DNA of 64,000 bases from Candidatus Versatilivoraceae bacterium (lineage in GTDB: Bacteria; Acidobacteriota; Terriglobia; Versatilivoradales; Versatilivoraceae), in contig OZ240232.1 in the NCBI GenBank assembly GCA_965197895.1, forward strand, positions 228,211-292,210, written 5' to 3'. The translations under genes and the position numbers were made by a program. The notes beneath the pieces are model-generated. The model was not told the DNA's origin and searched no databases. It saw nothing but the letters and a program-made list of their open reading frames with translations. Below, piece by piece: positions 5,684-43,363 of the stretch (position 1 is its first letter; every line of letters starts with the position of its first letter).

Positions 5684-7123
5684 ATGAAGAAGCGAATCAT
5701 CCTGATCGGCTTTTTGCTTTGGACTGTCTTTGCAGTGGAGCGGCTGCAGGGCCACGGCGTCCTGGGCCAGGTGGTTCAGCACCACATCATTGTCACAGCC
5801 GGGGAGTTTCATATTGATGTGACAGTTGAACTGACATTTCATTCCGTTTTCGCCCAACGAGAACGCCAACGGTTGGATACCAATCGCGATGGGTTCATCG
5901 AGGCTAAGGAAGTCGAGCAATACCTTGCCGGTATTTTGGCCAAGCTCGAACCAGGCCTGAGAATGGAGACTCGGCAGCGAGAGATTGACCTGATACGGTT
6001 GCACCCTCCCGAGCTGGATTTATTGGGGAATGAGGAGTCAGGGGCTCATCCGCTCCGAGTGAGTGCCTTCTACCTGGCCAGACTTGACCGGGGGTTGCGG
6101 AAGGCGGGCGTTGTGGACCTGGAGGATCGCCTTTGGATGGAGGGTCATGCTCTGGCTATGAACACCACCAGCCTGGTGCGGGATCCCGATCGATACTATC
6201 TCTACGGCTGGATGTTCGACCGGGTCCACCGGCAGGGTGGGTTGACGGGCTACGCTCACGTTCATCGAACCTATCCTCAACTGCATCGGGACATGAGTAT
6301 CAATGTTCCCAAAAACAAAGTGGATTTCCTCGAGTTGATGCAAATTGGTATTTTAGGGACGAATCTCTACTACGAGTTTCTCAATCTCGGCTTCAAATTG
6401 ACCGCCGCCGCCGGATCGGATGTGCCTTTTGCGGGTACCGTGGGGGAAGTCAGAGTTTATGCTTACGCCCAGGAGCCTGCCGATGCCGACTCTTGGTTTG
6501 AAGCCGTGCGTCAGGGGCGGACCTTCGTCACCAATGGCCCCATGCTGGAATTGGAGGTCGGGGGAGCCATGCCGGGTGGGGAGGTCTTGGTGGAAAAGGA
6601 CCGGAAGGTTCGAGTCCGCGCGCGGACCTGGGGCCATCCCGAGCGGTCCCGCCCTTCTCGATTGGAGATTGTGCGCCACGGTCAGGTCATCCGCCAGGTT
6701 CACCCTGGCCATGCCGGTGAGCACGAATTGCGCCTTTCTTTCGAGCTTGAAGCTGAATCCGGCTACTGGATCGCGGCCCGTGCTGAAGGGGCCGATGGAT
6801 CTCGAGCCCATACCACCCCGGTCTACGTGGTTCGGAAACCCCTTCGTTTCTGGAAATACGACCAGGTCGAGCCGCTGATCACAACCCGACTGCATAGCTT
6901 GGTTGAGGTGGAACGCTTAGTGGACCAAGCCACCTCCATGAGCCAAGGCCAAATTGCTTATGAGCCACTGGGCACGGGTGAGGGCACCGGATGGTGGGAG
7001 ATCCAGCGCCTGGCAGAGCAGGGACCCGAGTTGCTGGAAAGGGTGGCGGAGGCCAGGAGGATCTATGAGCAACTGCGAGAAACCTGGAAACTGGAAAAGT
7101 CTCAGCGTGAGGGGGCCCGTTGA
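5684..7123 (+). CDS. secreted hypothetical protein (possible PHP/CehA-like metallohydrolase C-domain)
   Basis: N-terminal signal peptide MKKRIILIGFLLWTVFAVERLQG. The central segment GYAHVHRTYPQL...AAAGSDVPFAG...RTFVTNGP resembles PHP-type metal-dependent hydrolases. The functional assignment is weak. Confidence 0.5.
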   Translation: MKKRIILIGFLLWTVFAVERLQGHGVLGQVVQHHIIVTAGEFHIDVTVELTFHSVFAQRERQRLDTNRDGFIEAKEVEQYLAGILAKLEPGLRMETRQREIDLIRLHPPELDLLGNEESGAHPLRVSAFYLARLDRGLRKAGVVDLEDRLWMEGHALAMNTTSLVRDPDRYYLYGWMFDRVHRQGGLTGYAHVHRTYPQLHRDMSINVPKNKVDFLELMQIGILGTNLYYEFLNLGFKLTAAAGSDVPFAGTVGEVRVYAYAQEPADADSWFEAVRQGRTFVTNGPMLELEVGGAMPGGEVLVEKDRKVRVRARTWGHPERSRPSRLEIVRHGQVIRQVHPGHAGEHELRLSFELEAESGYWIAARAEGADGSRAHTTPVYVVRKPLRFWKYDQVEPLITTRLHSLVEVERLVDQATSMSQGQIAYEPLGTGEGTGWWEIQRLAEQGPELLERVAEARRIYEQLRETWKLEKSQREGAR

Positions 7124-7188
7124 TTCTTTGCAGAGGGGTCTCGCTCCGGGGATCGGGCGGGTGTACGACAAAAACGTTGGAATCGCAA

Positions 7189-7670
7189 ACCGGTTTAACG
7201 GGACATGGTCCTTGCTCCCGAAAGGCCATGAAGGCCGGTTGTTTCACCCTCGAATGATCCGCCCCGTCGTGGGGGGCGGGGGCCCCACTTGCCTGAAACA
7301 AACCTGGGCTCGGGTGACGGAAAATCGGTTCAACAGATTGAAAGAAAGGGGGTTGGAGAGGAATTGACAACTTCTGGGGGTTATCCAGGAAGGACACGGA
7401 GCCACACCCTACAATTCCCGGCGTTGGGTCTCGGCGTCGAGCATGAGTCGATCCCTGATTAACATCGATAGACAGGATAAACAGGATGGTTTGGAGAGAG
7501 GTTTCAGCGTCTTGAGTTCGACCATCGCCTTTTCTTCAACAAGGATTCCAAAAACCCGCTCCCAAGTTCATGGATCACTTCAAACGTGCACCCGATCATC
7601 GAGCGAGTCAGCTTCCTGTGCAGCAACACCCTTACAAATTCCAGTAACGTTTAATCTCATCCATTACAGT
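7189..7670 (+). repeat. single copy of the dispersed ~490-bp repeat unit (MITE-like core plus spacer), directly upstream of integrase 1
   Basis: Near-identical to the units in the 16805-17885 array and to 25915-26440 (inverted). Contains ATCGATAGACAGGATAAACAGGAT 9-mer iteron inverted repeats. Confidence 0.7.
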
Positions 7671-7738
7671 CCATAACTGTATTTTATATCAGTGGTTTAT
7701 ATGAGTCCCGCAATCGCGCGGCCGGCTCGAAACATCCC

Positions 7739-7773
7739 TTGCAATCCACTACCATCCCCCATATAATTAGGGG
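7739..7773 (+). promoter_or_regulatory. sigma70-type promoter TTGCAA-17nt-TATAAT with the -10 box inside the palindrome CCCC-ATATAATTA-GGGG, abutting the integrase ATG (leaderless mRNA predicted)
   Basis: TTGCAA at 7739-7744, 17-nt spacer, TATAAT at 7762-7767, ATG at 7774. The same architecture recurs at 39825-39859 in front of integrase 2. Confidence 0.55.
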
Positions 7774-9006
7774 ATGATTAATGTAACCAAAACCACCCGC
7801 CTGCTACTTAAGACGAAACCCAAGGGCCGCCATCCCCCAAAGGCCCTCTCGGCTGCCTTCATCCGCTCCGCTCCGCCTGGAAGACACGCCGACGGGAACG
7901 GATTGTACCTCTTCGTCCAACCCAGCGGAACCCGCAGCTGGATTCAGCGCCTTCTCGTCCGCGGTCGCCGCCGTGAGCTCGGACTCGGAAGTGTTGCCCT
8001 CGTTCCATTGGCCGAAGCCCGGGAGAAGGCCCTCGCCAACCGCAAGCTCGCCCGCCAGGGCGGAGACCCGCTCGCCGAGAAGCGCCGTGCCGAAGGCATC
8101 CCCACTTTCGCCGAAGCCGCCATGCGTGTGCTGGAGCAGAAGCAGGGCGGATGGCGCGGGCAGCGTCACCCTCGCGAGTGGCTGTCGAGCCTGAGGCGGT
8201 TCGCCTTCCCTCGCATCGGCAAGGTGCCGGTCTCAGAGGTTACGAGCGCCGACGTGCTTGAGATCCTCACGCCCATCTGGCACCGGAAGATAGAGACGGC
8301 CCGGCGAGTGCGCCAGCGCCTGCGGGCGGTCCTGGAATGGGCGGTAGCGATGGAGTACCGCCTTGACAACCCCTGCGACCGGATCGGACCGGTGCTGGGT
8401 GCCCAACAGGACGTTACCGAGCACAGGCAGGCCGTGCCCCATCGGGAGGCGGGTGCGGTGATCCGTAGGGTGCGGGCATCGGCAGCGCCGCCGGGCGTCA
8501 AGTTGGCTCTTGAGTTCCTGGTGCTGACGGCAGCCAGGTGGGGCGAGGTGCGGTGGGCCGAGTGGGAGGAGATCGATCGCAGCGGGAGGGTGTGGACCGT
8601 CCCGGCCAGGCGGATGAAGACGAACCGCCGGCACCGGGTGCCGCTGTGTGGCCGCGCCCTGGAGATTCTCGACACTGCGGAGATACAGGAGGGGGGAGTC
8701 GGTCCACTGGTGTTCACCCATAGGGGCGGGAAGCCTCTCAATGACAGCGTGCTGCGCCGGCTGCTGCGGGAGCTTGGGATTGCGGCGGTGCCGCACGGTT
8801 TCCGCTCGACCTTCCGGGATTGGGCGGGTGAGGAAACGGATCATCCCCGGGAAGTGATCGAGGCGGCCTTGGCGCATGTGGTCCGGAACCGGGTGGAGGC
8901 GGCCTATGCCCGCTCGGACCTGTTCGAACGCCGGCGCACGTTGATGGACGAATGGGCGCGTTACCTGGCCCAAGGGTCGGGAGAGGATCTGGAGCCCGTG
9001 GGATAA
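7774..9006 (+). CDS. int: P4-type tyrosine integrase (DUF4102 arm-binding N-domain + phage-integrase catalytic domain)
   Basis: N-terminal GRHADGNGLYLFVQPSGTRSWIQR (Arm-DNA-binding), C-terminal HGFRSTFRDWAGEE...AHVVRNRVEAAYARSDLFERRR with the R..H..R..Y catalytic residues. ~85% identical to the 39860..41092 copy. Confidence 0.9.
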   Translation: MINVTKTTRLLLKTKPKGRHPPKALSAAFIRSAPPGRHADGNGLYLFVQPSGTRSWIQRLLVRGRRRELGLGSVALVPLAEAREKALANRKLARQGGDPLAEKRRAEGIPTFAEAAMRVLEQKQGGWRGQRHPREWLSSLRRFAFPRIGKVPVSEVTSADVLEILTPIWHRKIETARRVRQRLRAVLEWAVAMEYRLDNPCDRIGPVLGAQQDVTEHRQAVPHREAGAVIRRVRASAAPPGVKLALEFLVLTAARWGEVRWAEWEEIDRSGRVWTVPARRMKTNRRHRVPLCGRALEILDTAEIQEGGVGPLVFTHRGGKPLNDSVLRRLLRELGIAAVPHGFRSTFRDWAGEETDHPREVIEAALAHVVRNRVEAAYARSDLFERRRTLMDEWARYLAQGSGEDLEPVG

Positions 9007-9162
9007 AGAGGCGGCCAGGGATCGGACCGACTCCACAGAAGGCGAGTCAGCGCCTCTGAGAGAGTGTGCCAGTCTCTAAGCACGGGACTACACCCGGACC
9101 ACCGCCCTCTTCGACACGCTGATAGTCTTCAGAAAGCTTGAATCTGCCAGCATGGTGACTGC

Positions 9163-10128
9163 ATGCCCAAGACCAGGGAAACCATGATTGCCCACCTGAA
9201 CGGACGGGAAAAACTGCTGAGGCCTCTTGGCTTCACCCCCCAACAGGCCGAATGGATCACCCTGGTCTGCCTGCACTCGGGCCTGTTCACCCGAGACCAG
9301 GTCGAGGCTTTCTTCGGATACGCCAAGTCTACCGCCAACCGCTTTATCCAGGCGTTGCTCCAGACACGCATTTCACACAAGCCAATAGCCTCGGAGACCA
9401 TCACCGACGGCCGCCGAGTTTGCCGGATCTTCGGCAAGCAGATCTACGGGGAGCTGGAGGTCCCCCACATCCGTCACCGCCGGGAGACCTCGCTTGAAGT
9501 CACCCGGCGGCGACTGCTATCGCTCGATTTCGTGCTGGATCATCCGGAGTTGGCTTGGCTGCCGACCGAGCAGGAGAAGGTCGCCTGCTTCCAACAGCTC
9601 GGGATCGAGCGAGGCTTTCTGCCTTTCAGGATCTACTCCGGCCATGCCAAGGGGCAGGTCCGGTATTTCCCCCTCAGGCTACCGGTTGCCATGGGGCCGG
9701 AGGCGGCCGTATTCGTCTACATCGACCCCGGCATGGGAACCCGTACGGAGCTGGACTCCTGGAGACATACCCACCGGCCGCTTTGGCAGGCGCTCCGCGA
9801 GTGCGGCTGGCGGATCGAGGTGGTTGCGGTCGCCTGGGAGCAGGAACTCCTGGACCGCGCCGAGCGGGTGATGCAATCCTGGGTCGGCAGAGACCTGACT
9901 GAGGCCGGCAGAGAACTTCTCATTCTCCGGTGGGCTGTCTCCAACGCCGACCGGGAAACAGTCGAACGCTATGGTGGCCTCAATGCCGCCCTCAAGAAAA
10001 TCAACCAATTGAAGCAGGCAACGCCGGAGCCCCAGGGCCTGGGAATGATCGACGATTTCCACCTCTGGGGGTCAAGGCGGTGCCGTCGTAGGCATGCGCC
10101 ACTGAAAAAGGGGGGGTGGCTCCTCTAG
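9163..10128 (+). CDS. integrase-element-associated hypothetical protein (wHTH-like N-terminus; possible replication/maintenance function)
   Basis: 321 aa, co-directional with int. A 5'-truncated paralogue lies at 46972..47506. No recognisable catalytic motif. Confidence 0.55.
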   Translation: MPKTRETMIAHLNGREKLLRPLGFTPQQAEWITLVCLHSGLFTRDQVEAFFGYAKSTANRFIQALLQTRISHKPIASETITDGRRVCRIFGKQIYGELEVPHIRHRRETSLEVTRRRLLSLDFVLDHPELAWLPTEQEKVACFQQLGIERGFLPFRIYSGHAKGQVRYFPLRLPVAMGPEAAVFVYIDPGMGTRTELDSWRHTHRPLWQALRECGWRIEVVAVAWEQELLDRAERVMQSWVGRDLTEAGRELLILRWAVSNADRETVERYGGLNAALKKINQLKQATPEPQGLGMIDDFHLWGSRRCRRRHAPLKKGGWLL

Positions 10129-10323
10129 TGGCGCACGCTCTTGACCACCGCAATGCTTCTCTCTCAGAGAGCGGAGCCCTCTCTGCTGTGGTCGGGGCCT
10201 TGCCTGGAAAGCCTTGTTGGAAGCGGTTTGGCACGGATTCCTGGCGTCGGCTGAGACAGCCGTGGTGGGGTGGCGGCTGGCGTGTTCCCGCCTCGCCCGG
10301 CGCACCGCACGAGACGGGTGATG

Positions 10324-10459
10324 GTGGAGGGAGCGACCCCCCGATTTTTGCCGCTGGTGCGGCACCGGGGAGGGGTAAAGGGTGACAGGCAAAACGACAC
10401 CTTTACCCTCCCCTTAAAGGGGGGTCGCTCCCTCCACAGTGATCCCTGCGGGAAGGCTG
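10324..10459 (+). repeat. palindromic module copy 1: 17-bp perfect inverted arms GGAGGGAGCGACCCCCC / GGGGGGTCGCTCCCTCC around a nested hairpin, with tail ACAGTGATCCCTGCGGGAAGGCTG
   Basis: Arms at 10326-10342 and 10419-10435. Other copies at 41208-41342 (inverted) and 47711-47846 (different centre). Confidence 0.75.
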
Positions 10460-10619
10460 ACGAGCCGATGAGGAGGTCAGGGCCGCCGCATCGACCACAG
10501 GCGGTGCGCTGCGCGGACCGACTGGAAGGAATTCAGTGGGGCAGTGTGGCGGGTGACCAGGGTGTCGAAGAAATGCCTGAGGGCAGCCAGGCTTGGTTGT
10601 TGGTTGCGTTTGGACATCG

Positions 10620-11108
10620 TCATGGACAAGATCCTTTATTGTCCTGAGGATACCAATCGCGAATTTGTGCGTTATTTGTTACACGCATTTTCTGGAAGCA
10701 CTCCATCGCACGCGTGAGATTTTGGGTTAGCGAATAGTAGTTGTCGATTGCGCGTTCCAGCATGTCCTTCGCCTCCTCATTTGCATCAAATTCGACAGTC
10801 TTCGAATCGCCAGGAGACCAGTGCTTTAGCTTATTCCTTGCGTAGTTTGCTCGTTTGGCAACGTCCCTTTCACTGAGTTCCCCGTCATAAAGCTGCTTGT
10901 GGATTTCAGGGACATCTTTCTTGAGAGAGTCCAAAGAATTCTCAGACTTCTCAAGTTTGTTTTCCTTTAGAAGTTTCCCAAAGATCTCCTCTGAAGCGCC
11001 CGCCAATGTGATCACGGAATAGTAATCCTCTTGTTCGAAGTACAGGCGAAGGGCGGTTTCAAGTTGCCTAAGCGCCATACACTGCGGGTCATGAGCCATG
11101 AGGGTCAT
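10620..11108 (-). CDS. small alpha-helical protein with Rx4H (HEPN-like) motif
   Basis: Start at ATG 11108 (AAGGAG SD 6 nt upstream) gives MTLMAHDPQC..., 162 aa. Contains ...AKRANYARNKLKHW. Local GC is markedly lower than in flanking genes. Confidence 0.5.
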   Translation of the reverse strand: MTLMAHDPQCMALRQLETALRLYFEQEDYYSVITLAGASEEIFGKLLKENKLEKSENSLDSLKKDVPEIHKQLYDGELSERDVAKRANYARNKLKHWSPGDSKTVEFDANEEAKDMLERAIDNYYSLTQNLTRAMECFQKMRVTNNAQIRDWYPQDNKGSCP

Positions 11109-11205
11109 TACATCTCCTTCTATCCTGTGTTGCGTCGAGCGCCTTACGGGAATACTGTTCCCGGGGCCGCTTGAATGTACTTCATACTCATCCATCGCCC
11201 GCGTT

Positions 11206-13779
11206 TTATTTTACCGCTGCTAGGCGCCCTGCGATGTCCGCTAGCGCCAGAGATCGGTAATACGCGTTCTTGATATGCATGGCAATTGTCATCGCGTGCT
11301 TGAAGTCTCCTTCTTCCGCCTGCATCACGGCGATGTCCACCAAGGCACTGCTACCAAACCCGGCCTCTTCGACGCTGTGGGCATTTCGCACAGCAGCGGC
11401 TATGTCTCCAAATTTCGCCTGCTCTGTGATGAACTCCTCAATGTTGTTAGACACGCTGGCTCTGTCACCAAGTTCGTCGATTGCGCGGGCATGAGCAGCC
11501 TTGAGGGCGGAGGCGAATGTCTGGTTGGCTTGCGGCGCATGCCCTGCTTCCATTTGTGCGGTGGCGATCTCGCACAAGCTTTCGACGCGGGAATTGGCAG
11601 CGCCAATGCCACGGGCGGCTCGGAAGGCGGCCCCAAATGTTTGCATGGCTGCTGGACCATCCCCCGTTTTTGCCTGCACAGTGGCGATCTCGCGTAACGT
11701 CTCCGCGCAATGGACTCTGAACCAACCGGGACATAAGGCAGCCTGAGCGGTGGCGATCTGTAGTGCTTTCCAACTGTCTGGAGATGATGGATCCCACTGC
11801 CCTAAAATAGCCTCCAATTGTTCTGGAGTGGTGTCCTTCGGCGCTTCAGCTGTGAATTTCTTACTGCTTTTCTCGTGTGTGACTTCATATTTGCTCATCG
11901 GAATGCCGATGGGCTGAGCAAGCTCAAGAGCAGCGGCGATGTCTCCCGCTTTCGCCTGGGCCACAGCGATGTCCATCAAGGCCCAGCTACGGTCCCAAGC
12001 GTCATCAATGTCATAAGCGGCCTTTAGGGCAGTGGCGAGCATTGACTTGGCTGCTTGCTTGTCCCCGACTTCCCTCTGTGCATCGGCGATCTCGCACAAC
12101 GCTCGTACTCGATTTTCGGGCTGGCCTATTTCGTGGGCAATCTTGAGGGCCGTGGCGAATGTATGCCCAGATGCGAGTCTGTCTCCCAATTCCGCCTGCT
12201 TCTTGGCGATATCATCAAGCACCGTGGCCCGTTTTTGGGCAGACTCGATGGTGTGAGCAGCCTCTATGAAAAGAGCAATGTCATCTGTTGTTTTCGTGTG
12301 CTCAGCGACGAGTTGGTGAAGCATCTCAGGCCGAGAGGGGAAAAAGCCATAGTCGGAAAGATTGCGGGTAGTTGAGAGGGCAGCAGCTATATCTCCTGCC
12401 TCCGCTTGAATAGTAGCCATTTTCTCCAAGTAAGAGTCCCGACCCCAAGACGCGCTAGCTTCGATATCGTGAGCCTTCTCCAAGGCGAGAGCGGAATCAG
12501 CTGTTTGTCTGGCTGCTCGCAAATCTCGTGCTTCTGCCTGCCTTTCGGCAATCCCGTACAATGCGCCGACGCGTTTTTCAACATCGTCGATATCGCGAGC
12601 GGTCCGGAGCCCGCCGGCGATATCGCCTGCTTCTGCTTGCTCTATGGCGATATTGCTCAAGGTATAAGCGTGAGACCCTGCTCCGTCGATAGCAGCGGCA
12701 ATTGTTTGTCTGGCTGCTTGCAAATCTCCTGCTTCTACCTGCACCTTGGCAATCAATCGCAATGCCCCGACGCGCGTTAAGACATTGTGGATACCGTAAG
12801 CAGTCTGGAGGCCGCCAGCGATATCCCCTGCTTTGGCCTGGGCGGTGGCGATTCCGTGCAGGATTTCAGCGCGGACAGCGCGGAGTGTCCCGCCAATACT
12901 GCTGGCGGCCTTGATGGCGGCGGCGAATGATTGTTTGGCTACACTCAAGTCACCTGCTTCCGCTTGCGCTGTACCGATTTTCCGAAACACGACGGCGCGA
13001 GAAAGACTGTCGTTGATGCTGTTTACCCCATGCAATACAAGGCCTATAACGCACTCGTAGTTCGGGTTCTTCGGGCACTCATTGCGTCGCGTTGCTTCCA
13101 TGAGCTGTGATCGACCCTGGACCCGCAGTTCTTCGATCCACTCCGCCGGCAAGGCAAAGTTCAAACTCTCACCCCGCCACTTGAAGGTTGTGATTCCCAC
13201 CAGTTCGCCGGATTGATTGAAGAGCCCGCCGCCCGATGAACCCGGAGAGATGGCCGCATCCGTCTGCACCAGGGGCGCGGACCGCTTGCCGAAAGCGCCG
13301 CGCAGTTGCGATACGACCCCACGCGACAGCGACAGTTCCAGTCCCGCCGGAGCGCCCACCGCGTACACTTCCTCGCCTACCGACAACACCTTGGCTGCAC
13401 CCAGTCGGACTGCCTGAGCTGCCGGAGGCTCGGGCAACTGGTCCACGAACAGGAGACACAGATCGCGCTCGTCATTTCGCGCCAGCAAGTACGCGGGCAT
13501 CCGGTAGGTTTCTCGACCGGACCAATCAGCTGCCTGGCGCACCGCGACATCGGCCGCCTTACGAAGCACATGGCAATTGGTGACCACTTCGTAATCTCCC
13601 ACGACCACGCCGCTGCCTTGGCCTGTCGTCTTGCCTTGCTCATCCAACGCCAACACGACAACCACCGAGGGAGCTACTTTGGTAAAGACATCCTTGGCAG
13701 AGGCTCCCCAAGCACTAGCTGGCAAGGTCAGAACCGCCCACGCAATGACGGCGGCGCGGAGAATGAGCGTCACTTTCAT
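11206..13779 (-). CDS. secreted trypsin-like (S1/Trypsin_2) serine protease fused to ~13 HEAT/PBS-lyase-like repeats
   Basis: Signal peptide MKVTLILRAAVIAWAVLTLPASAWG. Catalytic His in VVTNCHVL, Asp in ERDLCLL and Ser in AISPGSSGGGLF. Followed by ~650 aa of degenerate repeats centred on I-A-x-A-Q-A-E-A-G-D-I-A. The internal DNA repeats generate many spurious opposite-strand ORFs. Confidence 0.75.
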   Translation of the reverse strand: MKVTLILRAAVIAWAVLTLPASAWGASAKDVFTKVAPSVVVVLALDEQGKTTGQGSGVVVGDYEVVTNCHVLRKAADVAVRQAADWSGRETYRMPAYLLARNDERDLCLLFVDQLPEPPAAQAVRLGAAKVLSVGEEVYAVGAPAGLELSLSRGVVSQLRGAFGKRSAPLVQTDAAISPGSSGGGLFNQSGELVGITTFKWRGESLNFALPAEWIEELRVQGRSQLMEATRRNECPKNPNYECVIGLVLHGVNSINDSLSRAVVFRKIGTAQAEAGDLSVAKQSFAAAIKAASSIGGTLRAVRAEILHGIATAQAKAGDIAGGLQTAYGIHNVLTRVGALRLIAKVQVEAGDLQAARQTIAAAIDGAGSHAYTLSNIAIEQAEAGDIAGGLRTARDIDDVEKRVGALYGIAERQAEARDLRAARQTADSALALEKAHDIEASASWGRDSYLEKMATIQAEAGDIAAALSTTRNLSDYGFFPSRPEMLHQLVAEHTKTTDDIALFIEAAHTIESAQKRATVLDDIAKKQAELGDRLASGHTFATALKIAHEIGQPENRVRALCEIADAQREVGDKQAAKSMLATALKAAYDIDDAWDRSWALMDIAVAQAKAGDIAAALELAQPIGIPMSKYEVTHEKSSKKFTAEAPKDTTPEQLEAILGQWDPSSPDSWKALQIATAQAALCPGWFRVHCAETLREIATVQAKTGDGPAAMQTFGAAFRAARGIGAANSRVESLCEIATAQMEAGHAPQANQTFASALKAAHARAIDELGDRASVSNNIEEFITEQAKFGDIAAAVRNAHSVEEAGFGSSALVDIAVMQAEEGDFKHAMTIAMHIKNAYYRSLALADIAGRLAAVK

Positions 13780-13787
13780 GGGATCGA

Positions 13788-14069
13788 TTATACCCTTCCG
13801 CGTCTCAGGAAGGGTTCGGTTTGCTGCGTTCGATTGGTGTAAAGGCCCGCCCTGTGACTTTCCCCCGAATTTAGGTCCGACTCCAGGCCGCGATACTGCT
13901 TCTTCCAGCGGTAGAAGGTCGGCTCCGCAATGCTTAACTTTCGGGCAAGGTCGGTCGCCGAAACCGCCAGATCGTGTTGCTTCACTGCTGCAACGATCTG
14001 CTCAACCGAGAATCGCTGACGCTTCATCTGACACCCTCCTTCCTTTCTTGGGAGTTTGTCAGAATTCAC
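13788..14069 (-). pseudogene. IS3-family OrfA (HTH) remnant
   Basis: MKRQRFSVEQIVAAVKQHDLAVSATDLARKLSIAEPTFYRWKKQY matches the IS3/IS911 OrfA N-terminus. It breaks off after ~55 aa and no OrfB follows. Confidence 0.6.
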
Positions 14070-14103
14070 TTTCTCAGTGGATCAGCTGTTGGGGAGACCC
14101 TCA

Positions 14104-14275
14104 ATTGATACTCGGCTGACCAGTCCGCTAACGTCCCTGAGGGTCCCGTGGATTCCTTTTTGAAAAAAGGGATATAATGAGGAAACTGTAGCGGGCTGAT
14201 CCGCGTTAAGTCTATTATAATTAATGGTTTATATTTGAGAGATTGCAGGCTGTGCAGGCGCGGGCTCGTTGTGAG
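14104..14275 (+). repeat. P1 repeat copy (TTGATACTCGGCT...GGGATATAATGAGG...GCAGGCTGTGCAG)
   Basis: Homologous to 16506-16804 and 48001-48165. Confidence 0.7.
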
Positions 14276-15005
14276 ATCTGGATAGGCGATCGATGTGTAA
14301 GGCTAAAGCTTTCCTCAGTGATCGAGAAGACCAGAAGGCGAGACCAATGGTGCAGACCGCCAAACCTGCATACATTACGGGTTGATGGTGACCGGCCAGC
14401 AGACTGAGCGCCAGGCACAAACCCGCCAGATTGGCATGGAGAATCCGGCGGCTGGGTTTTATGGTTTGCAAGGACTTGGCATAGAACAGGAAGACTGCCG
14501 GTACCCACACCGAGGCGTAGAAGAGGCTGGCCGCACTAACCACCCGCATGCCGATGGAGCCTGAATAGGCGAAGATCACGGCGGCCACACAGGAGCTGAA
14601 GGGACGAAGACCCAGGTGCCGTCCGAGCAGGTAAAATAAAAAGGAGGCAATGATGCAATGAAGGATGAGGAATCCTTCAATCACGGAAACAGGGATGAGC
14701 CCATTGGGGTTGAGGGGAACCAGTCCCAGGAGAAGATTAGGAGGGTAGAAGATCCCTGGTTGCATTTCGCCGGCAAATGGACGCCCGGCATCGGTGTAAC
14801 TGTCCCAGAATGGAAAGCTTCCCTGGTGTAAAGTACGGGCGATGTACTGAGCCCACGGATAAGTCTGATCGGCGGAGTCTTCATGCGTTAGTATCGAATA
14901 CTCGGCTGTAAAGACCACCTTCCAAAAGATGGCTATGCCAAAGAAAAAAAGGAGTAGGCCATATTTCCAAGTGTTTCTTTTACGGTGCCACGCCACGGGA
15001 ATCAA
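14229..15005 (-). pseudogene. YfhO-like polytopic membrane protein, 3'-truncated by IS3-remnant/P1 insertion
   Basis: N-terminal ~250 aa (DQTYPWAQYIARTLHQGSFPFWDSYTDAGRPFAGEMQPGIFYPPNLLLG...) match the YfhO family, which is normally >700 aa. The last 8 codons and the stop are supplied by the P1 repeat. Confidence 0.6.
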
Positions 15006-15364
15006 CTCTTGTCAGGAGAAATGACAACGGTAAGGCAAAAACGATAAGGAGGGAAAAGAACGCTGGTGCTTCAGATCGGAGAAGCCCTCCGCTTTAGATA
15101 ACTTGGTATTGCGATTTCTTGTAAGTTCCCCCTCTGTTCCCCCACGACGGGGTGGATCATTATATTCTAAGGTAAGTCTAGGCCCGTGCAAGCCATCATT
15201 ACAAATAAGGCTTGCCCTGAAGCTCTCTCCTGGGCAACGCTTGACCGGTACCGTCATCTCGGACCGGAACCGGTCGTAGAGGTTTGTTGAACAGCCACTA
15301 AAATCTTAAAGCTTCATCCCGCTTGACCAATATCGCCGGCGGCACAAGATACAAAGGAATTCCG

Positions 15365-16327
15365 ATGGCTTGCAGAACAACCAGTGTGTTCGAGAAGGAG
15401 ATGCGGTCTCTGGGATGGTGGTATCAACATTTCGAATTTCCCAATGGAGTCAAGACCGGAACCGGAGCCCCTCCAGGATACGACGCCCGAAGCCGATGGT
15501 CATTTATTGAGGCATTTGTTCCAGACGACCTGACGGGGAAGACCGTCCTGGATCTAGGGGGCAATGCTGGTTTCTTTTCAATTCAGATGAAGCTCAGGGG
15601 GGCTCAAAGATGCGTGCTGGTGGATCCGTTTGAGATCGCAATCAAACAGGCTGGGTTTGCGGCCAGGCAATTCGGCGTCAGCCTGGAACTGGTCATGGAG
15701 GACGCACATACCTTTTGTCTGACGACAGAAGAGCGATTCGATTTCGTGCTCTTTCTGGGCTTGTTTTACCACCTCAAATATCCGGGCATCGTGCTGGACA
15801 GGCTGGCTGAAATCACGCGAGAGCGAATCTACATTCACTCACACGTCATCGGTCACAAGAGAGAACCTTTTATCAGCAAACCGGACTACAAGAGGAAAAG
15901 TGACGACCACTTGCTGGAACACCCCGGTTTCCCAAGGCTGGCGTTTGTGGAAGCGCAATACAACGAAGATTCTACGAACTGGTGGATACCCAACCGGACT
16001 GGAATGGAGGCCATGGTAAGAAGCGCGGGCTTGCGCATCATTGACCGGCCTCACCGCCAAATAATCGTCGCAGTTCCCGAAATTTATTTCGGGAAGCAGA
16101 TATTTTCGAAGCTGGTGTTCCCGAGGTATGGCAAGAAAGGAGGTGCGGTCCTTCCTGGCTCACAGCGGTATGACCCTGAAGCGTGGATAGAAATATCCGA
16201 GGCCATTGCCGAAAGGCCGGTGGAGAAAACGAACTTTATCGTACGGACGGGGTGGAAATGGATTAACCGATTGCGGTCCCTGTACCTGAAGATTCGCAGT
16301 CGTCTGGTGAGCAAGCTGAGGCAATAA
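15365..16327 (+). CDS. class I SAM-dependent methyltransferase (DUF1698/CmoB-like)
   Basis: Motif I VLDLGGNAGFFSI, then acidic LVDP and DFVLFLGLFYHL. ATG at 15365 has an AAAGGA SD; the track start at 15323 is TTG. Confidence 0.8.
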   Translation: MACRTTSVFEKEMRSLGWWYQHFEFPNGVKTGTGAPPGYDARSRWSFIEAFVPDDLTGKTVLDLGGNAGFFSIQMKLRGAQRCVLVDPFEIAIKQAGFAARQFGVSLELVMEDAHTFCLTTEERFDFVLFLGLFYHLKYPGIVLDRLAEITRERIYIHSHVIGHKREPFISKPDYKRKSDDHLLEHPGFPRLAFVEAQYNEDSTNWWIPNRTGMEAMVRSAGLRIIDRPHRQIIVAVPEIYFGKQIFSKLVFPRYGKKGGAVLPGSQRYDPEAWIEISEAIAERPVEKTNFIVRTGWKWINRLRSLYLKIRSRLVSKLRQ

Positions 16328-16505
16328 TGTTCAAGAACCGCACTGATCCATCCTCCTACTTCCTTTACGTCAAATCCTGACCTGCTACCCTAGGACGTGC
16401 GGCTCGAGGCCGTGTAGTACCTGGTCGGCCACGCCAACCCCATTTCCACCCAGATCTATCACCGGCCCACGATTTGCTCGACGGACTTGGACTCCCGGAC
16501 TCACG

Positions 16506-16804
16506 ATTGATATTCGGCTGACCTGTCCCTCAGTAACTGTTCGGTCAAGCCGTGATGGCTTGGACCCGGACGAGGTTGGAGGTGCCTGCAATCACAGGCG
16601 ATCCGTCGGTTCTGCTCGCTGCGCCTCCCCGGGACGGCGGATGGTCTCCACGGCTTGGCCGAACGGTTACGTCCGCCAACGTCCTGGAGGGTCCAATGGA
16701 TTCCTTTTCGAAAAGAGGGATATAATGAGGGAACTTCAGTCGGATAAACCATATTAAGTCTATTATAATTAGAGGTTTACAAACTATAGGTTGCAGGCTG
16801 TGCA
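16506..16804 (+). repeat. P1 repeat copy carrying a ~130-bp internal insertion
   Basis: Shares both ends with the other P1 copies; the extra segment lies at 16520-16690. Confidence 0.6.
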
Positions 16805-17885
16805 GCAGCTTCTCGTCCTGTTTATCCTGTCTATCCTGTCTATCGATGTTCCCTAATGCAACAAACCGGTTTAACGGGACATGTCCCTACTCCGGAAAGG
16901 TCATGAAGGTCCGTTGTTTCACTCTCGAATGATCCGCCCCGTCGTGGGGGCGGGGGCCGGCTTGCCTGAAACAACATCTGGGTTCGGCTGAAGGAAAACC
17001 GGTTGAGGGGTTATCCAGGAAGGACACGAAGTTACACCCTACAATTCCCGGCGTTTGGTATCGGCCTCGAGCATGAAAAGACTAATTGACATCGATGGAC
17101 AGGATAAACAGGATTATTTGGCGAGAGGTTTCAGCCTCTTGAGTTCGACCATCGCCTTTTCTTCAACAAGGATTCCAAAAACCCGCTCCCAAGCTCATGG
17201 ACCCCTTCAAACGTGCACCCGATTATCGAACCAGTCAGCTTCCCGTGCAGCAGCTTCTCGTCCTGTCTATCCTGTCTATCCTGTCTATCGATGTTCCCTA
17301 ATGCAACAAACCGGTTTAACGGGACATGTCCCTACTCCGGAAAGGTCATGAAGGCCGGTTGTTTCACTCTCGAATGATCCGCCCCGTCCTGGGGGGCGGG
17401 GGCTATACTTGCCTGAAACAAACCTGGGTTCGGGTGAAGGAAAACCGGTTCAACAGATTGAAAGAAAGGGGGTTGGAGAGGAATTGACAACTTCTGGGAG
17501 TTATCCAGGAAGGACACGAAGTTACACCCTACAATTTCCGGCGTTTGGTATCGGCGTCGAGCATGAAAAGACTAATTGACATCGATGGACAGGATAAACA
17601 GGATTATTTGGCGAGAGGTTTCAGCCTCTTGAGTTCGACCATCGCCTTTTCTTCAACAAGGATTCCAAAAACCCGCTCCCAAGCTCATGGACCCCTTCAA
17701 ACGTGCACCCGATTATCGAGCCAGTCAGCTTCCTGTGCAGCAGCTTCTCGTCCTGTCTATCCTGTCTATCGATGTTCCCTAATGCAGCAAACCGGTTTAA
17801 CGGGACATGGTCCCTGCTCCCGAAAGGCCATAAGGGTCCGTTGTTTCACCCTCGAATGATCCACCCCGTCGTGGGGGCGGGGGCC
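16805..17885 (+). repeat. tandem array (~2.3 units) of the ~490-bp repeat
   Basis: The units beginning at about 16805 and 17230 are >90% identical, and a third partial unit begins at about 17725 and ends at 17885. Each unit holds a ~340-bp segment bounded by 23-bp inverted repeats ATCCTGTCTATCCTGTCTATCGAT / ATCGATGGACAGGATAAACAGGAT. Confidence 0.8.
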
Positions 17886-18341
17886 GAACCTGTCTGAGAT
17901 CACCCGCCAGGAATCATTGCTGCCGCCGCCTACGCGGCTCCCCTTGACCCCCCGGGCTGGCGCCCGGAGGATGATCATTAAAAAATCCTGTCCCCCGGCA
18001 GCGTTGTTATTTTTGGGAGAGCGGCGCAGCCGCGGCAGCACTTCGCCCTCGTGATGTTTGAGGGAGACTTTGGCCGCGCGTTCAGACCGCTTGCGGTTAA
18101 GGGGGAGGCCAGCAGCCATGCCGTCTGCCCGCAGTCGCACCGCCAAACCAGCGACGGGAAGATAGGCATGAAGACTCTTCATATCTGATAACGAATACTG
18201 ATACAGATACAGATATCCATGCTATCCCGCTGCCAGTAGGCCCTACGCGCCTCGCCTCACGAAGTTGTCGTACACCCGGGATCGGGCTTGCCTTTGGCTG
18301 GTGGTTGCCTGTAGCCTGGATCATGCGGGTTAGGAGAAAAG

Positions 18342-25641: not shown

Positions 25642-25914
25642 TCCAGGGAGGGGTCCCCGGCAATACTCAAAGTAGGGGTTTTAGGGCGAAGCAGGCCTTG
25701 GGCCGGGGGGAGCGGGCGCTGCCGCTGCTGCCCGAAGCCCGAGGAGTAGGGCCCCGAATGAATGCGACCAGGATGTTGCTTGAGGATTCGGGGACGGACG
25801 GCCCAAAGAGTCCCAAGGAGGCAATGGGAAGGCCGCTTACCAGACCTTCCCTGGCAGTGGGACTGTCAGGTGATTACCGTCACTGTACAGACACGGGCGG
25901 ACCAGAGGTAAGTG

Positions 25915-26440
25915 GGGCCCCCGCCCCCCAGGACGGGGCGGATCATTCGAGGGTGAAACAACGGATCCTTATGGCCTGTCGCGAGTAGGGACCATGTCCC
26001 GTTAATCGGGTTTGCTGCATTAGGGAACATCGATAGACAGGATAGACAGGATAAACAGGACGAGAAGCTGTTGCACAGGAAGCCGACTCGCTCGATGATC
26101 GGGTGCGCGTTTGAAGTGATCCAGTAGCTTGAGAGCGGGTTTTCGGAATCCTTGTTGAAGAAAAGGTGATGGTCGAACTCAAGGGGGTGAAAACTCTCGT
26201 CCCGGAGCATGCAGCCCAGACCATCAACAAACCATCCTGTTTATCCTGTCCATCGATGTTAATCAGGGATCGACTCATGCTCGACGCCGAGACCCAACGC
26301 CGGGAATTGTAGGGTGTGGCTCCGTGTCCTTCCCGGATAACCCCCACAAGTTGTCAATTCCTCTCCAACCCCCTTTCTTTCAATCTGTTGAACCGGTTTT
26401 CCGTCACCCGAACCCAGGTTTGTTTCAGATAAGTATAGCC
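25915..26440 (-). repeat. inverted copy of the ~490-bp repeat unit
   Basis: Reverse complement of the 16805-17885 array consensus. Confidence 0.75.
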
Positions 26441-26450
26441 CGAGCCGGAT

Positions 26451-39824: not shown

Positions 39825-39859
39825 TTGCAATCCACTGGCATCCCCTATATAATAAGGGG
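39825..39859 (+). promoter_or_regulatory. second copy of the TTGCAA-17-TATAAT integrase promoter inside the CCCC-TATATAATA-AGGGG palindrome
   Basis: Same architecture as 7739-7773; ATG at 39860. Confidence 0.55.
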
Positions 39860-41092
39860 ATGATTGCTGGAACCCATACCGCCTGTCTGCTACCCAGAAC
39901 CAAACCCAAGGGCCGCCATCCCCCAAAGGCCCTCTCGGCTGCATTCCTGCGCTCCGCTCCGCCCGGAAGACACGCCGATGGAAACGGATTGTACCTCTTC
40001 GTCCAGCCCAGCGGAACCCGCAGCTGGATTCAACGCCTCCTGGTCCGCGGCCGCCGCCGTGAGCTCGGACTCGGCAGCGTTGCCCTGGTCCCGCTGGCCG
40101 AGGCCCGGGAGAAGGCGCTCGCCAACCGCAAGCTCGCCCGCCAGGGCGGGGACCCGCTCGCCGAGAAGCGACGTAGCCAGGCCGTCCCCACCTTCGCCGA
40201 AGCCGCCATGCGTGTGCTGGAACAGAAGCGGGACGGATGGCGCAACCCGAGACACCCGCGCGAGTGGATCTCGAGCCTGAGGCGGTTCGCCTTCCCGCGC
40301 ATCGGCAAGGTGCCGGTCTGTGAGGTCACGAGCGCCGATGTCCTTGAGATCCTCACGCCCATCTGGCACCAGCAGGCCCCCACGGCCCGGCGGGTGCGCC
40401 AGCGCCTGCGGGCGGTCCTGGAATGGGCCGTAGCCATGGAGTACAGGATCGACAACCCCTGCGACCGGATCGGCCCGGTCCTGGGTCTCCAACAGGACGT
40501 TATCGAGCACATGCAGGCCTTGCCCCATCGGGAGGTGGCTGCGGTGATCCGGACGGTGCGGGTATCCCCAGCTCTGCCGGCCGCCCGGCTGGCCCTTGAG
40601 TTCCTGGTGCTGACGGCAGCCAGGTGGGGCGAGGTGCGGTGGGCTGAGTGGGAGGAGATCGATCGTAGCGGGAGGGTGTGGACCGTCCCGGCCAAGCGGG
40701 CAAAGACGAACCGCCGGCACCGGGTGCCGCTGTGTGGCCGTGCCCTGGAGATTCTCGAGGCGGCGCAGGCACTGGAGCAGGGAGCCGGTCCGCTGGTGTT
40801 CACCCATGGGGGCGGGAGGCCTCTCCATGACAGCCAGCTGCGCCGCCTGCTGCGCGAGCTTGGGGTTGCGGCGGTGCCACACGGGTTCCGCTCGACCTTC
40901 CGGGACTGGGCGGGTGAGGAAACGGACCATCCCCGGGGGGTGATCGAGGCGGCCCTGGCGCATGTGGTCCGGAACCGGGTCGAGGCAGCCTATGCCCGCT
41001 CGGACCTGTTCGAGCGCCGGCGTATCCTGATGGACGACTGGGCGCGTTACCTGGCCCAAGGGATGGAGGAGGAGTCGGAGCCCTTGGAGTAA
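39860..41092 (+). CDS. int: P4-type tyrosine integrase, copy 2
   Basis: 410 aa, collinear with 7774..9006. Confidence 0.9.
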   Translation: MIAGTHTACLLPRTKPKGRHPPKALSAAFLRSAPPGRHADGNGLYLFVQPSGTRSWIQRLLVRGRRRELGLGSVALVPLAEAREKALANRKLARQGGDPLAEKRRSQAVPTFAEAAMRVLEQKRDGWRNPRHPREWISSLRRFAFPRIGKVPVCEVTSADVLEILTPIWHQQAPTARRVRQRLRAVLEWAVAMEYRIDNPCDRIGPVLGLQQDVIEHMQALPHREVAAVIRTVRVSPALPAARLALEFLVLTAARWGEVRWAEWEEIDRSGRVWTVPAKRAKTNRRHRVPLCGRALEILEAAQALEQGAGPLVFTHGGGRPLHDSQLRRLLRELGVAAVPHGFRSTFRDWAGEETDHPRGVIEAALAHVVRNRVEAAYARSDLFERRRILMDDWARYLAQGMEEESEPLE

Positions 41093-41207
41093 AGAGGCCC
41101 AAGGGATCGGTTGCCCGGGGCAAACCAGGGTGAGAGCCAGGCTCGAAGTCCGGCGGCAGTCAAAGCCAGGTTGAGCAGGACAACCCGGGTCCAGGTCTTC
41201 AGCATTT

Positions 41208-43164: not shown

Positions 43165-43363
43165 GGCTGTCTCAGGACCGCGCTCTTCTTCAGCAATGGC
43201 GCGCCGTCCGTCAATGACCAGAGACCGGTTCCCTAATCTCATCAGTCCTTTAGTAAGGTGTGGCTCGAACGTGCTGTGTTTAAAATCACCCAAATACGTT
43301 ATAGTGTGCCTTTCATCATCTAACCCCTTCAGACATTACCCGAGAAACCGGAGAGAACTCGTC

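What the first reader, a model, noticed from the sequence alone, without database searches (positions are those of the whole stretch)
10620..13779. Lower-GC two-gene module: secreted S1 protease fused to ~13 HEAT-like repeats plus a small Rx4H (HEPN-like) protein
This module sits between the right end of integrase element 1 (palindromic module at 10459) and an IS3 OrfA remnant (13788-14069), in the position of element cargo. The 857-aa protein has a Sec signal and an intact His/Asp/Ser trypsin-fold triad. It then carries ~650 aa of degenerate ~35-50-aa repeats, each bearing I-A-x-A-Q-A-E/K-A-G-D-I-A. I do not recognise this combination as a described family. The downstream 162-aa protein is all-helical and carries R-N-K-L-K-H (Rx4H), the HEPN catalytic signature. 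Its GC content is far below the genome background, so it looks horizontally acquired. A secreted protease/repeat scaffold paired with a cytoplasmic HEPN-like RNase-type protein could be a toxin/immunity pair or a defence/offence cassette.
Basis: partly seen in the sequence, partly recalled or inferred. Interest (0 to 1): 0.65.

Follow-up and report, generated by a model that had tools for sequence, protein, structure and literature searches.

The report
Exported protease paired with HEPN RNase
A mobile genomic island carries a two-gene operon: a periplasmic HtrA-type protease with a long TPR-like tail, followed by a small cytoplasmic HEPN (RNase-type) protein. This pairing recurs in many uncultured bacteria and I found no description of it in the literature I searched, but what it does is still unknown.

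Summary

The family is mostly solitary: 76 of 80 genomic loci have no protease nearby. Within the window's protease lineage, however, the gene directly downstream is this HEPN in about 11 independent loci. In about 6 others it is a different protein with an invariant R-N-x-x-x-H motif plus a CBS pair. Protease and HEPN diverge together (Mantel p ~2e-4).

The pair is cargo of a 9.2-kb integrase island (7760-16968) that is 99.5% identical to a contig with different flanks. A toxin/immunity relationship is not supported. My best reading is a functionally coupled accessory (conflict or stress) cassette acting in two compartments. How the two proteins are coupled is unknown. Only the small gene is markedly low in GC (0.47).

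The parts
11206..13779 (-). Gene 1: 857-aa exported S1C (HtrA/DegP-type) serine protease fused to a TPR-like solenoid
   Evidence: ORF. Pfam Trypsin_2 E=1.3e-28. NCBIfam degP_htrA_DO matches the protease domain only. More than 800 homologues. AF2 model pLDDT 79. Foldseek matches DegS/DegP/DegQ plus TPR superhelices.
13705..13779 (-). Sec-type signal peptide (residues 1-25, predicted cleavage AWG|AS)
   Evidence: Read directly from the sequence. The n-region, h-region and A-x-G site are conserved immediately before 'SAKDVF' throughout the family. No dedicated signal-peptide predictor was available.
13105..13704 (-). Trypsin-fold protease domain (residues 26-225). Catalytic codons: H70 at 13570-13572, D106 at 13462-13464, S182 at 13234-13236.
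   Evidence: Motifs TNCH, DLCLL and GSSGG. H70, D106, S182 and the adjacent C69/C108 are invariant in 44 sequences.
11209..13104 (-). Linker with invariant C235/P239/C243, then a TPR-like alpha-solenoid (about 16 helix pairs, residues 241-856) with a beta-hairpin insert at 628-647
   Evidence: Repeat motif positions. Invariant Cys residues. AF2 secondary structure, pLDDT mostly 85-95. Foldseek to the OGT and LGN TPR domains, Ctr9 and Ski3. Pfam TPR_12 is sub-threshold (24.7 bits against a cut-off of 30.1).
11109..11205 (-). 97-nt intergenic spacer with Shine-Dalgarno GAAGGAG (11114-11120) 5 nt upstream of the ATG at 11108
   Evidence: Sequence. In other loci the gap is 11-51 nt. The close relative L168 has the same 97-nt gap.
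10620..11108 (-). Gene 2: 162-aa cytoplasmic minimal HEPN-domain protein ('HEPN-A'), with no signal peptide
10821..10838 (-). Codons for R91-N92-K93-L94-K95-H96 (the Rx4H HEPN motif)
   Evidence: Sequence. N88, N92, K95 and H96 are invariant and R91 is at least 90% conserved in alignment A1.
10575..10592 (-). Weak terminator-like hairpin 28 nt after the HEPN-A stop codon
   Evidence: Consensus scan only. The number of such sites found is not above the shuffled expectation.
13788..14069 (-). Context, not part of the module: IS3-type OrfA (HTH_Tnp_1) remnant ending 8 nt upstream of the protease start codon
   Evidence: Pfam E=1.3e-11. It is shared only with the very close relatives L081, L082 and L168. 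The HTH_Tnp_1 gene in L083 is unrelated.
7760..16968 (.). Context: 9.2-kb integrase island that carries the module as cargo. Contents: integrase 7774-9006, orf321 9163-10128, module, IS3 remnant, orf258, methyltransferase 15323-16327.
   Evidence: 99.5% identity over 9,213 bp to L081, whose flanks are unrelated. Integrase domains. Dispersed repeats lie at both borders.

Best explanation
The region holds a horizontally mobile two-gene operon, carried as cargo of a 9.2-kb integrase island.

Gene 1 encodes a Sec-exported HtrA/DegP-type serine endopeptidase. The usual PDZ domains are replaced by a ~615-aa TPR-like solenoid. It is predicted to work in the periplasm, with the solenoid acting as the platform that binds substrates or partners.

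Gene 2 encodes a ~160-aa cytoplasmic HEPN-domain protein with an intact R-N-x-x-x-H site. It is predicted to be a metal-independent RNase that acts as a dimer, like other HEPN proteins.

In this protease lineage the position directly downstream behaves as a partner slot. It is filled either by this HEPN family (short or long form, sometimes followed by a second, classical HEPN gene) or by a different protein with an R-N-x-x-x-H motif and a CBS pair.

From this I infer that the two products form one functionally coupled accessory module of the conflict or stress type. The protease acts on envelope or periplasmic targets and the HEPN partner cleaves cytoplasmic RNA. They are not a toxin/immunity pair.

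Shown here: both folds, both sets of catalytic-type residues, the conserved export signal, the conserved gene order, the co-divergence, the partner swapping and the mobility of the island.

Inferred only: RNase activity, protease activity, any physical or regulatory coupling, and the biological role.
For: Folds and motifs:
- Protease.
- Signal peptide conserved across the family. Invariant Cys pairs C69/C108 and C235/C243, and PG_binding_1 domains in longer relatives, both fit a periplasmic location.
- HEPN fold and invariant RNxLKH.

Linkage:
- HEPN-A lies directly downstream on the same strand, with a gap of 11-97 nt, in the window/L081/L082, L168, L083, L084-86, L087, L170/171 (Nitrospinota) and L004 (Gammaproteobacteria).
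- Four more pairs sit on shared contigs, three of them only 4-6 kb long.
- The genomic contexts differ: integrase islands, a locus next to a TrwC relaxase, and chromosomal sites.
- Protease-domain and HEPN-A distances correlate (r=0.61, Mantel p~2e-4, 11 pairs).
- All linked HEPN-A sequences fall in one clade of the family tree.

Partner swapping:
- Proteases whose protease domain is 87-92% identical to the window's carry the RNDALH+CBS protein in the same slot (L169, L223, L224). Three more cases are inferred from shared contig length.
- The two partner types interleave on the protease-domain tree. They were never seen together on one contig.

Mobility: 99.5% identity of 7760-16968 to a contig with different flanks. 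TA genes and mobile-element genes are frequent neighbours.
Against: - The two products are predicted to be in different compartments, and no membrane-spanning component that could connect them is encoded in the module.
- Each family also occurs alone. 76 of 80 genomic HEPN-A loci lack the protease and have unrelated neighbours such as rplI, prfC, uvrA and corA. More distant protease-TPR relatives (62-69% protease-domain identity) have no HEPN downstream.
- L001 and L073 keep HEPN-A at a locus syntenic with L170 but lack the protease.
- The HEPN nature of the alternative partner rests only on its invariant motif. Pfam, a PDB sequence search and hhalign gave nothing significant for its N-terminal domain.
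- Neighbours give no consistent defence-island signal in PADLOC. No copies were found in phage or viral collections.
- No enzymatic activity was tested.
Confidence: 0.4

Rival explanations
1. There is no functional coupling. HEPN-A, and likewise the RNxxxH-CBS gene, is a small, AT-rich, self-sufficient mobile gene that lands behind many kinds of host gene. It landed once or a few times behind a periplasmic housekeeping-type protease. The pair then spread together only because the genes are physically linked.
For: - HEPN-A is mostly solitary and sits next to unrelated genes. In 47 of 61 loci it lies downstream of a same-strand gene, with a median gap of 113 nt.
- The partner genes always have much lower GC (0.435-0.50) than the protease gene (0.51-0.59) and the surrounding locus, as expected if their origins differ.
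- The window and L168 proteases are 95% identical in the protease domain, yet their HEPN-A proteins are only 66% identical and differ by a ~420-nt insertion.
- The protease is absent from the syntenic loci L001 and L073.
- Distant protease relatives have no partner.
Against: - The linkage is retained in about 17 loci, across several phyla and genomic contexts, often with an 11-nt gap.
- The two genes co-diverge.
- When the partner is replaced, the replacement again carries an invariant RNxxxH motif and occupies the same position. Random insertion would be unlikely to produce this.
Confidence: 0.3
2. The HEPN partner is a post-transcriptional regulator. It would trim the operon's own mRNA, or secretory mRNAs in general, to limit synthesis of a potentially dangerous exported protease. 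The CBS pair or the coiled-coil insertion would act as the sensor of cell state. This would be an envelope-load feedback loop, not a defence system.
For: - The partner is co-transcribed downstream of the protease.
- In one partner family a ligand-sensing CBS pair is attached to the RNxxxH domain.
- Long HEPN-A variants carry a ~100-aa helical insertion.
- HEPN RNases with RNA-processing or regulatory roles are known, for example the Ire1 KEN domain (my own knowledge; listed in PMC3710099).
Against: - No RNA element was detected (Rfam).
- The location in mobile elements and variable regions is not explained.
- Solitary HEPN-A genes sit beside unrelated operons.
- I know of no precedent for a bacterial HEPN that regulates its own operon.
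Confidence: 0.12
3. This is the first reader's toxin/immunity idea, or a protease-inhibitor pair. The exported protease would be harmful, and the small cytoplasmic protein encoded just downstream would neutralise it. Possible forms are an immunity protein, or a staphostatin-like cytoplasmic inhibitor of prematurely active precursor.
For: The gene order (an exported enzyme followed closely by a small cytoplasmic protein) resembles staphopain-staphostatin and toxin-immunity loci (my own knowledge). From the protease side the linkage is strong within the subclade.
Against: - The small protein keeps an invariant catalytic-type RNxLKH motif and a HEPN fold.
- More than 2,000 family clusters are mostly solitary.
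- The alternative partner is an unrelated RNxxxH+CBS protein. Two unrelated folds inhibiting the same protease is unlikely.
- Distant proteases lack any partner.
- The protease has none of the trafficking domains typical of polymorphic toxins.
Confidence: 0.06

Closest known systems
HtrA family (DegP/DegQ/DegS), MEROPS S1C periplasmic serine proteases
   Same: Sec signal peptide and a trypsin fold with a His-Asp-Ser triad. The protease domain matches degP_htrA_DO, DegS and DegQ models and structures.
   Different: No PDZ domain. The C-terminal ~615 aa form a TPR-like solenoid instead. The full-length score is far below the NCBIfam cut-offs (102 bits against 416). There are extra invariant Cys pairs.
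Periplasmic protease plus TPR arrangements: BepA (M48 protease with a C-terminal TPR domain) and NlpI-Prc (TPR adaptor plus S41 protease). Cited from my own knowledge; not tested here.
   Same: An envelope protease whose substrate choice is delegated to a TPR module. Some relatives of the window protein also carry a peptidoglycan-binding domain.
   Different: A different catalytic class (S1C). The solenoid is much longer. There is an operon link to a HEPN gene, which as far as I know has not been reported for BepA or Prc.
Solitary HEPN abortive-infection proteins such as AbiV, and the HEPN domains of Csm6/Csx1
   Different: No significant sequence match to any curated HEPN model (best is HEPN_Apea at 16 bits against a cut-off of 24.4). 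No CARF domain or other sensor domain. No phage phenotype is known.
HEPN families reported in operons with repeat proteins: AbiU2 with a Sel1-repeat protein, and LA2681 fused to or next to TPR (Anantharaman et al. 2013, PMC3710099)
   Same: A HEPN gene adjacent to a gene encoding a TPR- or Sel1-type solenoid. Sel1 ORFs also lie downstream of the module in L004 and L083.
   Different: Here the solenoid is fused to an exported S1C protease. The HEPN family is neither AbiU2 nor LA2681 by Pfam. That paper reports no association between an S1 peptidase and a HEPN.
HEPN-MNT type II toxin-antitoxin systems
   Same: A small HEPN protein with an Rx4H motif, often found in regions rich in mobile elements and TA genes.
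   Different: No nucleotidyltransferase (MNT) gene lies next to HEPN-A in the window or in related loci. The upstream partner is an exported protease.
Ire1/RNase L KEN-domain logic (conceptual analogue only; my own knowledge)
   Same: A HEPN-type RNase in the cytoplasm associated with events in a topologically external compartment (ER lumen or periplasm).
   Different: In Ire1 the two parts are one transmembrane polypeptide. Here they are two separate proteins with no membrane-spanning link, and no homology beyond the HEPN superfamily.

Membership tests
HEPN superfamily | All-alpha up-down helical bundle of the HEPN fold | tested here: met
HEPN superfamily | Conserved Rx4-6H motif, usually with a polar residue after R | tested here: met
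   R91-N92-K-L-K95-H96. N92, K95 and H96 are invariant and R91 is at least 90% conserved in 44 sequences.
HEPN superfamily | Match to a curated HEPN sequence model above its threshold (any Pfam CL0291 family, including DUF4145, HEPN_Apea, HEPN_AbiV) | tested here: not met
   The best match is HEPN_Apea at 16-16.8 bits against a cut-off of 24.4. 11 of 44 members give weak Apea hits (best E 2.5e-4). No DUF4145 or AbiV hit, and no NCBIfam hit.
HEPN superfamily | Metal-independent endoribonuclease activity of a dimer | not testable with these tools
   Needs biochemistry.
HEPN-MNT toxin-antitoxin | Adjacent minimal nucleotidyltransferase (MNT) antitoxin gene | tested here: not met
   The neighbours are the protease upstream and non-coding sequence downstream. 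No nucleotidyltransferase was found among neighbours in related loci.
HtrA/DegP (S1C) proteases | Trypsin fold with a His-Asp-Ser triad | tested here: met
   Trypsin_2 E=1.3e-28. H70, D106 and S182 invariant. Foldseek to DegS, DegP and DegQ. The AF2 confidence for residues 127-206 of this domain is low.
HtrA/DegP (S1C) proteases | One or two C-terminal PDZ domains | tested here: not met
   No PDZ hit in Pfam or NCBIfam. The C-terminal region is a TPR-like solenoid.
HtrA/DegP (S1C) proteases | Export to the periplasm | tested here: inconclusive
   Supported by a conserved Sec-type signal sequence read from the alignments, invariant Cys pairs and PG_binding_1 in relatives. No signal-peptide predictor was run and no experiment was done.
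TPR repeat proteins | Tandem helix-turn-helix repeats forming a superhelix; match to TPR models | tested here: inconclusive
   The structure is clearly a TPR-like solenoid. However, Pfam TPR_12 is below threshold (24.7 against 30.1), and the repeat period of 33-44 aa is irregular.
   No HEAT or HEAT_2 hit in Pfam. The top structural matches for the repeat region are designed helical-repeat toroids and TPR proteins.
Known anti-phage defence systems (PADLOC-DB v2) | Proteins match the models of a defined system, with the system's gene content | tested here: not met
   Only domain-level hits were found: RT-Protease_XI trypsin domain at 48 bits, and Csx1 HEPN at 12.9 bits. Neighbours show no recurrent defence system.
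Toxin-immunity / protease-inhibitor pair | The downstream protein is dedicated to the upstream enzyme (co-occurs with it, has no catalytic motif of its own) and acts in the compartment where protection is needed | tested here: not met
   The downstream family is mostly solitary, has an invariant catalytic-type motif, and is replaced in sister lineages by an unrelated RNxxxH-CBS protein.

The most novel reading that the evidence does not exclude
The exported protease may double as a sensor of envelope or export failure for its cytoplasmic RNase partner. When Sec export or membrane energisation collapses (for example during phage attack or envelope damage), unexported precursor would accumulate in the cytoplasm and activate the HEPN (or RNxxxH-CBS) RNase, either by cleaving it or by binding it through the TPR solenoid. 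The RNase would then shut down translation. This would be a bacterial, two-protein counterpart of Ire1/RIDD, or a new abortive-infection trigger. The data do not exclude this, and it would explain why an RNase of either family is kept in the slot behind a periplasmic protease. There is no direct evidence for it.
Probability: 0.08. Interest if true: 0.85.

Novelty: new variant of a known kind. Interest (0 to 1): 0.5.

Why it matters
HEPN RNases are central effectors in CRISPR ancillary nucleases, toxin-antitoxin systems and abortive-infection systems, but many HEPN families remain unmodelled. This work makes three contributions.

- It defines a large stand-alone HEPN family (about 2,200 clusters at 50% identity) that no Pfam or NCBIfam model captures.
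- It defines a lineage of periplasmic HtrA-type proteases in which PDZ domains are replaced by a long TPR solenoid.
- It shows a conserved, swappable operon link between that protease and RNxxxH proteins, carried on mobile islands.

If the link is functional, it would connect proteolysis in the envelope with RNA cleavage in the cytoplasm. I am not aware of any described bacterial conflict or stress system with that logic. If the link is not functional, it still documents how small AT-rich HEPN genes ride behind host genes.

Tried and rejected
- **IS3 OrfA as a third component: rejected.** The IS3 OrfA (HTH_Tnp_1) gene lies directly upstream of the protease in the window, and an HTH_Tnp_1 gene is also present in L083. 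The window's copy has homologues only in the near-identical relatives L081, L082 and L168. The L083 gene is unrelated.
- **A conserved partner for solitary HEPN-A genes: none found.** Clustering of the +/-3 neighbours and a Pfam scan of 126 flanking ORFs gave only lineage-specific synteny, such as rplI in Geomonas.
- **Phage origin: no support.** There were no HEPN-A hits among 50,697 phage records or in IMG/VR. The protease gave only generic trypsin hits of 43% identity or less.
- **Integron-cassette context for distant HEPN-A copies on Vibrio chromids: not supported.** No repeated attC-like sequences were found.
- **Sequence relatives of HEPN-A in the PDB: none**.
- **Is the alternative partner's N-terminal domain a HEPN?** hhalign against A1 gave a probability of 0.14%, although the two motifs did align. 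The Pfam and PDB profile searches were negative. Its HEPN status is therefore unproven.
- **Synteny between the window and L169/L224: none.** I suspected it because both have a PhyH gene nearby.
- **Rfam search of 7000-18000: no hits**.
- **Defence-island test of neighbours with PADLOC: no recurrent system**.
- **afdb50 fold library: unavailable**.
- **Organism of origin: not determined.** The cluster look-up returned no names.


Full report
**1. What is in the sequence**

Two adjacent ORFs lie on the minus strand.
- One spans 11206-13779 and encodes 857 aa.
- The other spans 10620-11195 and encodes at most 191 aa.

For the small gene, the 162-aa form starting at the ATG at 11108 is the likely product. 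That ATG is preceded by GAAGGAG 5 nt upstream, and the database copy P0001 is 162 aa long.

The window's overall GC is 0.592.
- The small gene is 0.470, the 0.9th percentile of same-size windows.
- The protease gene is 0.576, the 26th percentile.

'Low GC' therefore applies properly only to the small gene. The same holds elsewhere. In nine other loci the partner gene has GC 0.435-0.50, against 0.51-0.59 for the protease gene and 0.55-0.64 for the surrounding locus.

**2. The large protein**

Pfam Trypsin_2 matches residues 55-196 (E=1.3e-28). NCBIfam HtrA, DegP, DegS and DegQ models match the protease domain only, far below their full-length cut-offs, and there is no PDZ domain.

In an alignment of 44 homologues the following are invariant:
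- the catalytic residues H70, D106 and S182;
- C69 and C108;
- the C235-x3-P-x3-C243 element.

The N-terminus, M-K/R-...-hydrophobic core-...-A-x-G|ASAKDVF, is a Sec-type signal conserved across the family. Longer relatives add a PG_binding_1 domain. Together these features point to a periplasmic location. This is an inference from sequence, because no dedicated predictor and no experiment were available.

Residues ~241-856 carry at least 11 strict copies of I-A-x-x-Q-x-E/K-x-G-D, mostly 33-44 aa apart, plus degenerate copies. AlphaFold2 (pLDDT 79; repeat region mostly 85-95) folds them into about 16 helix pairs, with a beta-hairpin insert at 628-647. Foldseek matches DegS, DegP and DegQ for the N-terminal domain. 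For the repeat region the matches are designed helical-repeat toroids and TPR superhelices (OGT, LGN, Ctr9, Ski3). The repeats are therefore TPR-like, not HEAT-like.

**3. The small protein**

- sacsin HEPN, LsoA and SO_3166

In the family alignment, N88, N92, K95 and H96 are invariant and R91 is nearly invariant. This gives R-N-x-L-K-H, the canonical Rx4H motif with N after the R.

No curated sequence model captures the family.
- HEPN_Apea scores 16 bits against a cut-off of 24.4.
- 11 of 44 members give weak Apea hits.
- PADLOC Csx1 gives E ~0.01.
- NCBIfam gives nothing.

A profile search of 1.84 billion representative proteins found 2,180 clusters at E<=1e-3 and 836 at E<=1e-10. Nearly all are single-domain proteins of 135-165 aa. 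I call this family HEPN-A.

**4. Is the pairing real?**

*From the HEPN side, mostly not.* Of 80 genomic loci carrying HEPN-A relatives, only L004 has the protease directly upstream. L003 has a TPR-only remnant there. L001 and L073 have an ordinary DegP 2-3 kb away. The remaining neighbours are unrelated genes such as rplI, prfC, uvrA, corA and mscS, and no neighbour family recurs.

*From the protease side, yes, within a subclade.* HEPN-A lies directly downstream on the same strand, 11-97 nt away, in these loci:
- the window/L081/L082;
- L168;
- L083;
- L084-86;
- L087;
- L170/171 (a Nitrospinota MAG);
- L004.

Four further pairs share contigs, three of which are only 4-6 kb long.

Two analyses support inheritance as a unit.
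- In a neighbour-joining tree of HEPN-A, all linked copies fall in one clade, with about eight solitary copies interspersed.
- Protease-domain and HEPN-A distances correlate (r=0.61, Mantel p~2e-4).

More distant protease-TPR relatives (62-69% protease-domain identity; L172-L174) have no HEPN downstream. In a long PG-binding variant (L092-94) the downstream region is occupied by a transposase gene and a group II intron.

**5. An unexpected second partner**

L169 has a protease whose protease domain is 87% identical to the window's. Downstream of it lies a different 261-aa protein. Its family of 165 hits has an invariant R88-N89-(D)-A-x-H93 motif in an N-terminal region of ~115 aa that I presume to be helical. 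This is followed by a CBS pair (E=8e-8 to MJ1225).

This protein sits directly downstream of the protease in L169, L223 and L224. Those proteases are 87-92% identical to the window's in the protease domain.

On a protease-domain tree, the window's HEPN-A-linked lineage is nested among lineages linked to the CBS-type partner, so the partner has been exchanged at least twice. The two partner types were never seen on the same contig.

I could not show that the N-terminal domain of this second partner is a HEPN. That step rests on the motif alone.

In several loci a second, classical HEPN gene (PF05168) follows HEPN-A: L170, L084, L087, and the protease-less loci L002 and L073. The window has no such gene.

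**6. Genomic context**

Window 7760-16968 (9,213 bp) is 99.5% identical to L081, a contig from another assembly, and the flanks beyond this block are unrelated. The block contains:
- a tyrosine integrase (7774-9006);
- an unknown 321-aa ORF;
- the module;
- an IS3 OrfA remnant;
- a 258-aa ORF;
- a methyltransferase.

Dispersed repeats of 150-300 nt lie at both borders. The module is therefore cargo of a recently mobile integrase island.

Elsewhere the module lies next to a TrwC relaxase, another integrase, or in chromosomal variable regions, often near toxin-antitoxin genes. A PADLOC scan of 50 neighbouring proteins showed no recurrent defence system. Neither gene was found in phage records or viral contigs.

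**7. Interpretation**

*Shown:*
- an exported S1C protease with a TPR-like solenoid;
- a HEPN-fold protein with an intact catalytic-type motif;
- a conserved operon arrangement in one protease lineage;
- co-divergence of the two genes;
- partner exchange between two RNxxxH protein families;
- carriage on a mobile island.

*Inferred:* that the two products work together.

I favour functional coupling (confidence 0.4) for two reasons. The linkage survived many transfers. When the partner was replaced, the replacement again carried RNxxxH and occupied the same slot. Given what is known of HEPN proteins (PMC3710099), the partner is most likely an RNA-cleaving effector or regulator, and the module is most likely an accessory cassette of the conflict or stress type.

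The main rival (confidence 0.3) is plain hitchhiking by AT-rich mobile HEPN genes. It is supported by the abundance of solitary copies, the GC contrast, and the loss of the protease at a syntenic locus (L001/L073 versus L170).

How a periplasmic protease and a cytoplasmic RNase would communicate is unexplained. No membrane-spanning component is encoded in the module.

**8. Comparison with known systems and novelty**

Each component belongs to a known superfamily: S1C HtrA proteases, TPR-like repeats and HEPN. HEPN genes next to Sel1 or TPR genes have been noted before (AbiU2-Sel1 and LA2681-TPR). I found no description of an exported HtrA-TPR protease operonically linked to HEPN-type proteins in the family libraries or in the literature searches. 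I classify the module as a new variant of a known kind, of moderate interest (0.5).

Noticed in passing
window 7760-16968 (borders 7131-7653 and 16800-17896; further copies at 25906-26446 and 48001-48297): A 9.2-kb integrase island is 99.5% identical to contig L081, whose flanks are different. Both borders abut a dispersed family of 150-300-nt repeats, which may be the integration target.
   Followed up: partly
window 39850-41110 and 41196-41369: A second tyrosine integrase, 88% identical at the nucleotide level to the first. It is followed by an inverted copy (92-95% identity) of the 10298-10471 element that lies between orf321 and the HEPN gene.
   Followed up: no
window 43196-46966 (repeats 43501-45408): A 1,256-aa ORF containing at least 18 tandem 72-nt (24-aa) repeats. 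It was not characterised.
   Followed up: no
L169:8173-8958, L223:8702-9472, L224:9019-9759: An alternative partner gene downstream of closely related proteases. It encodes a 245-265-aa protein with an invariant R-N-D-A-x-H motif plus a CBS pair. No Pfam model covers its N-terminal domain.
   Followed up: partly
L170:8481-9020, L084:8086-8646, L087:8520-8963, L002:10505-10948, L073:10795-11334: A second, classical HEPN gene (PF05168; two subtypes) directly follows HEPN-A in several loci, both with and without the protease. The window has none.
   Followed up: partly
L001 and L073 versus L170/L171: These loci are syntenic (degP, DUF3179 x2, lgt, [protease-TPR], HEPN-A, HEPN-B, cyclase), but L001 and L073 lack the protease-TPR gene. 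The protease was therefore gained or lost at a fixed site.
   Followed up: partly
L168:8800-9223 versus window 10869-10980; proteins P0016, P0031, P0042, P0049: Long HEPN-A variants (250-300 aa) carry a ~100-140-aa charged helical insertion between the N-terminal helices and the RNxLKH helix. Apart from this, the window and L168 are collinear at 86% nucleotide identity.
   Followed up: partly
L004:10707-11111, L083:9230-9721: Small secreted Sel1-repeat ORFs lie downstream of the module in two loci. This recalls the AbiU2-Sel1 association reported in PMC3710099.
   Followed up: no
window 9163-10128: A 321-aa ORF next to the integrase has no Pfam or PADLOC match. Only its C-terminal ~56 aa recur, in L025 and L091.
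   Followed up: no
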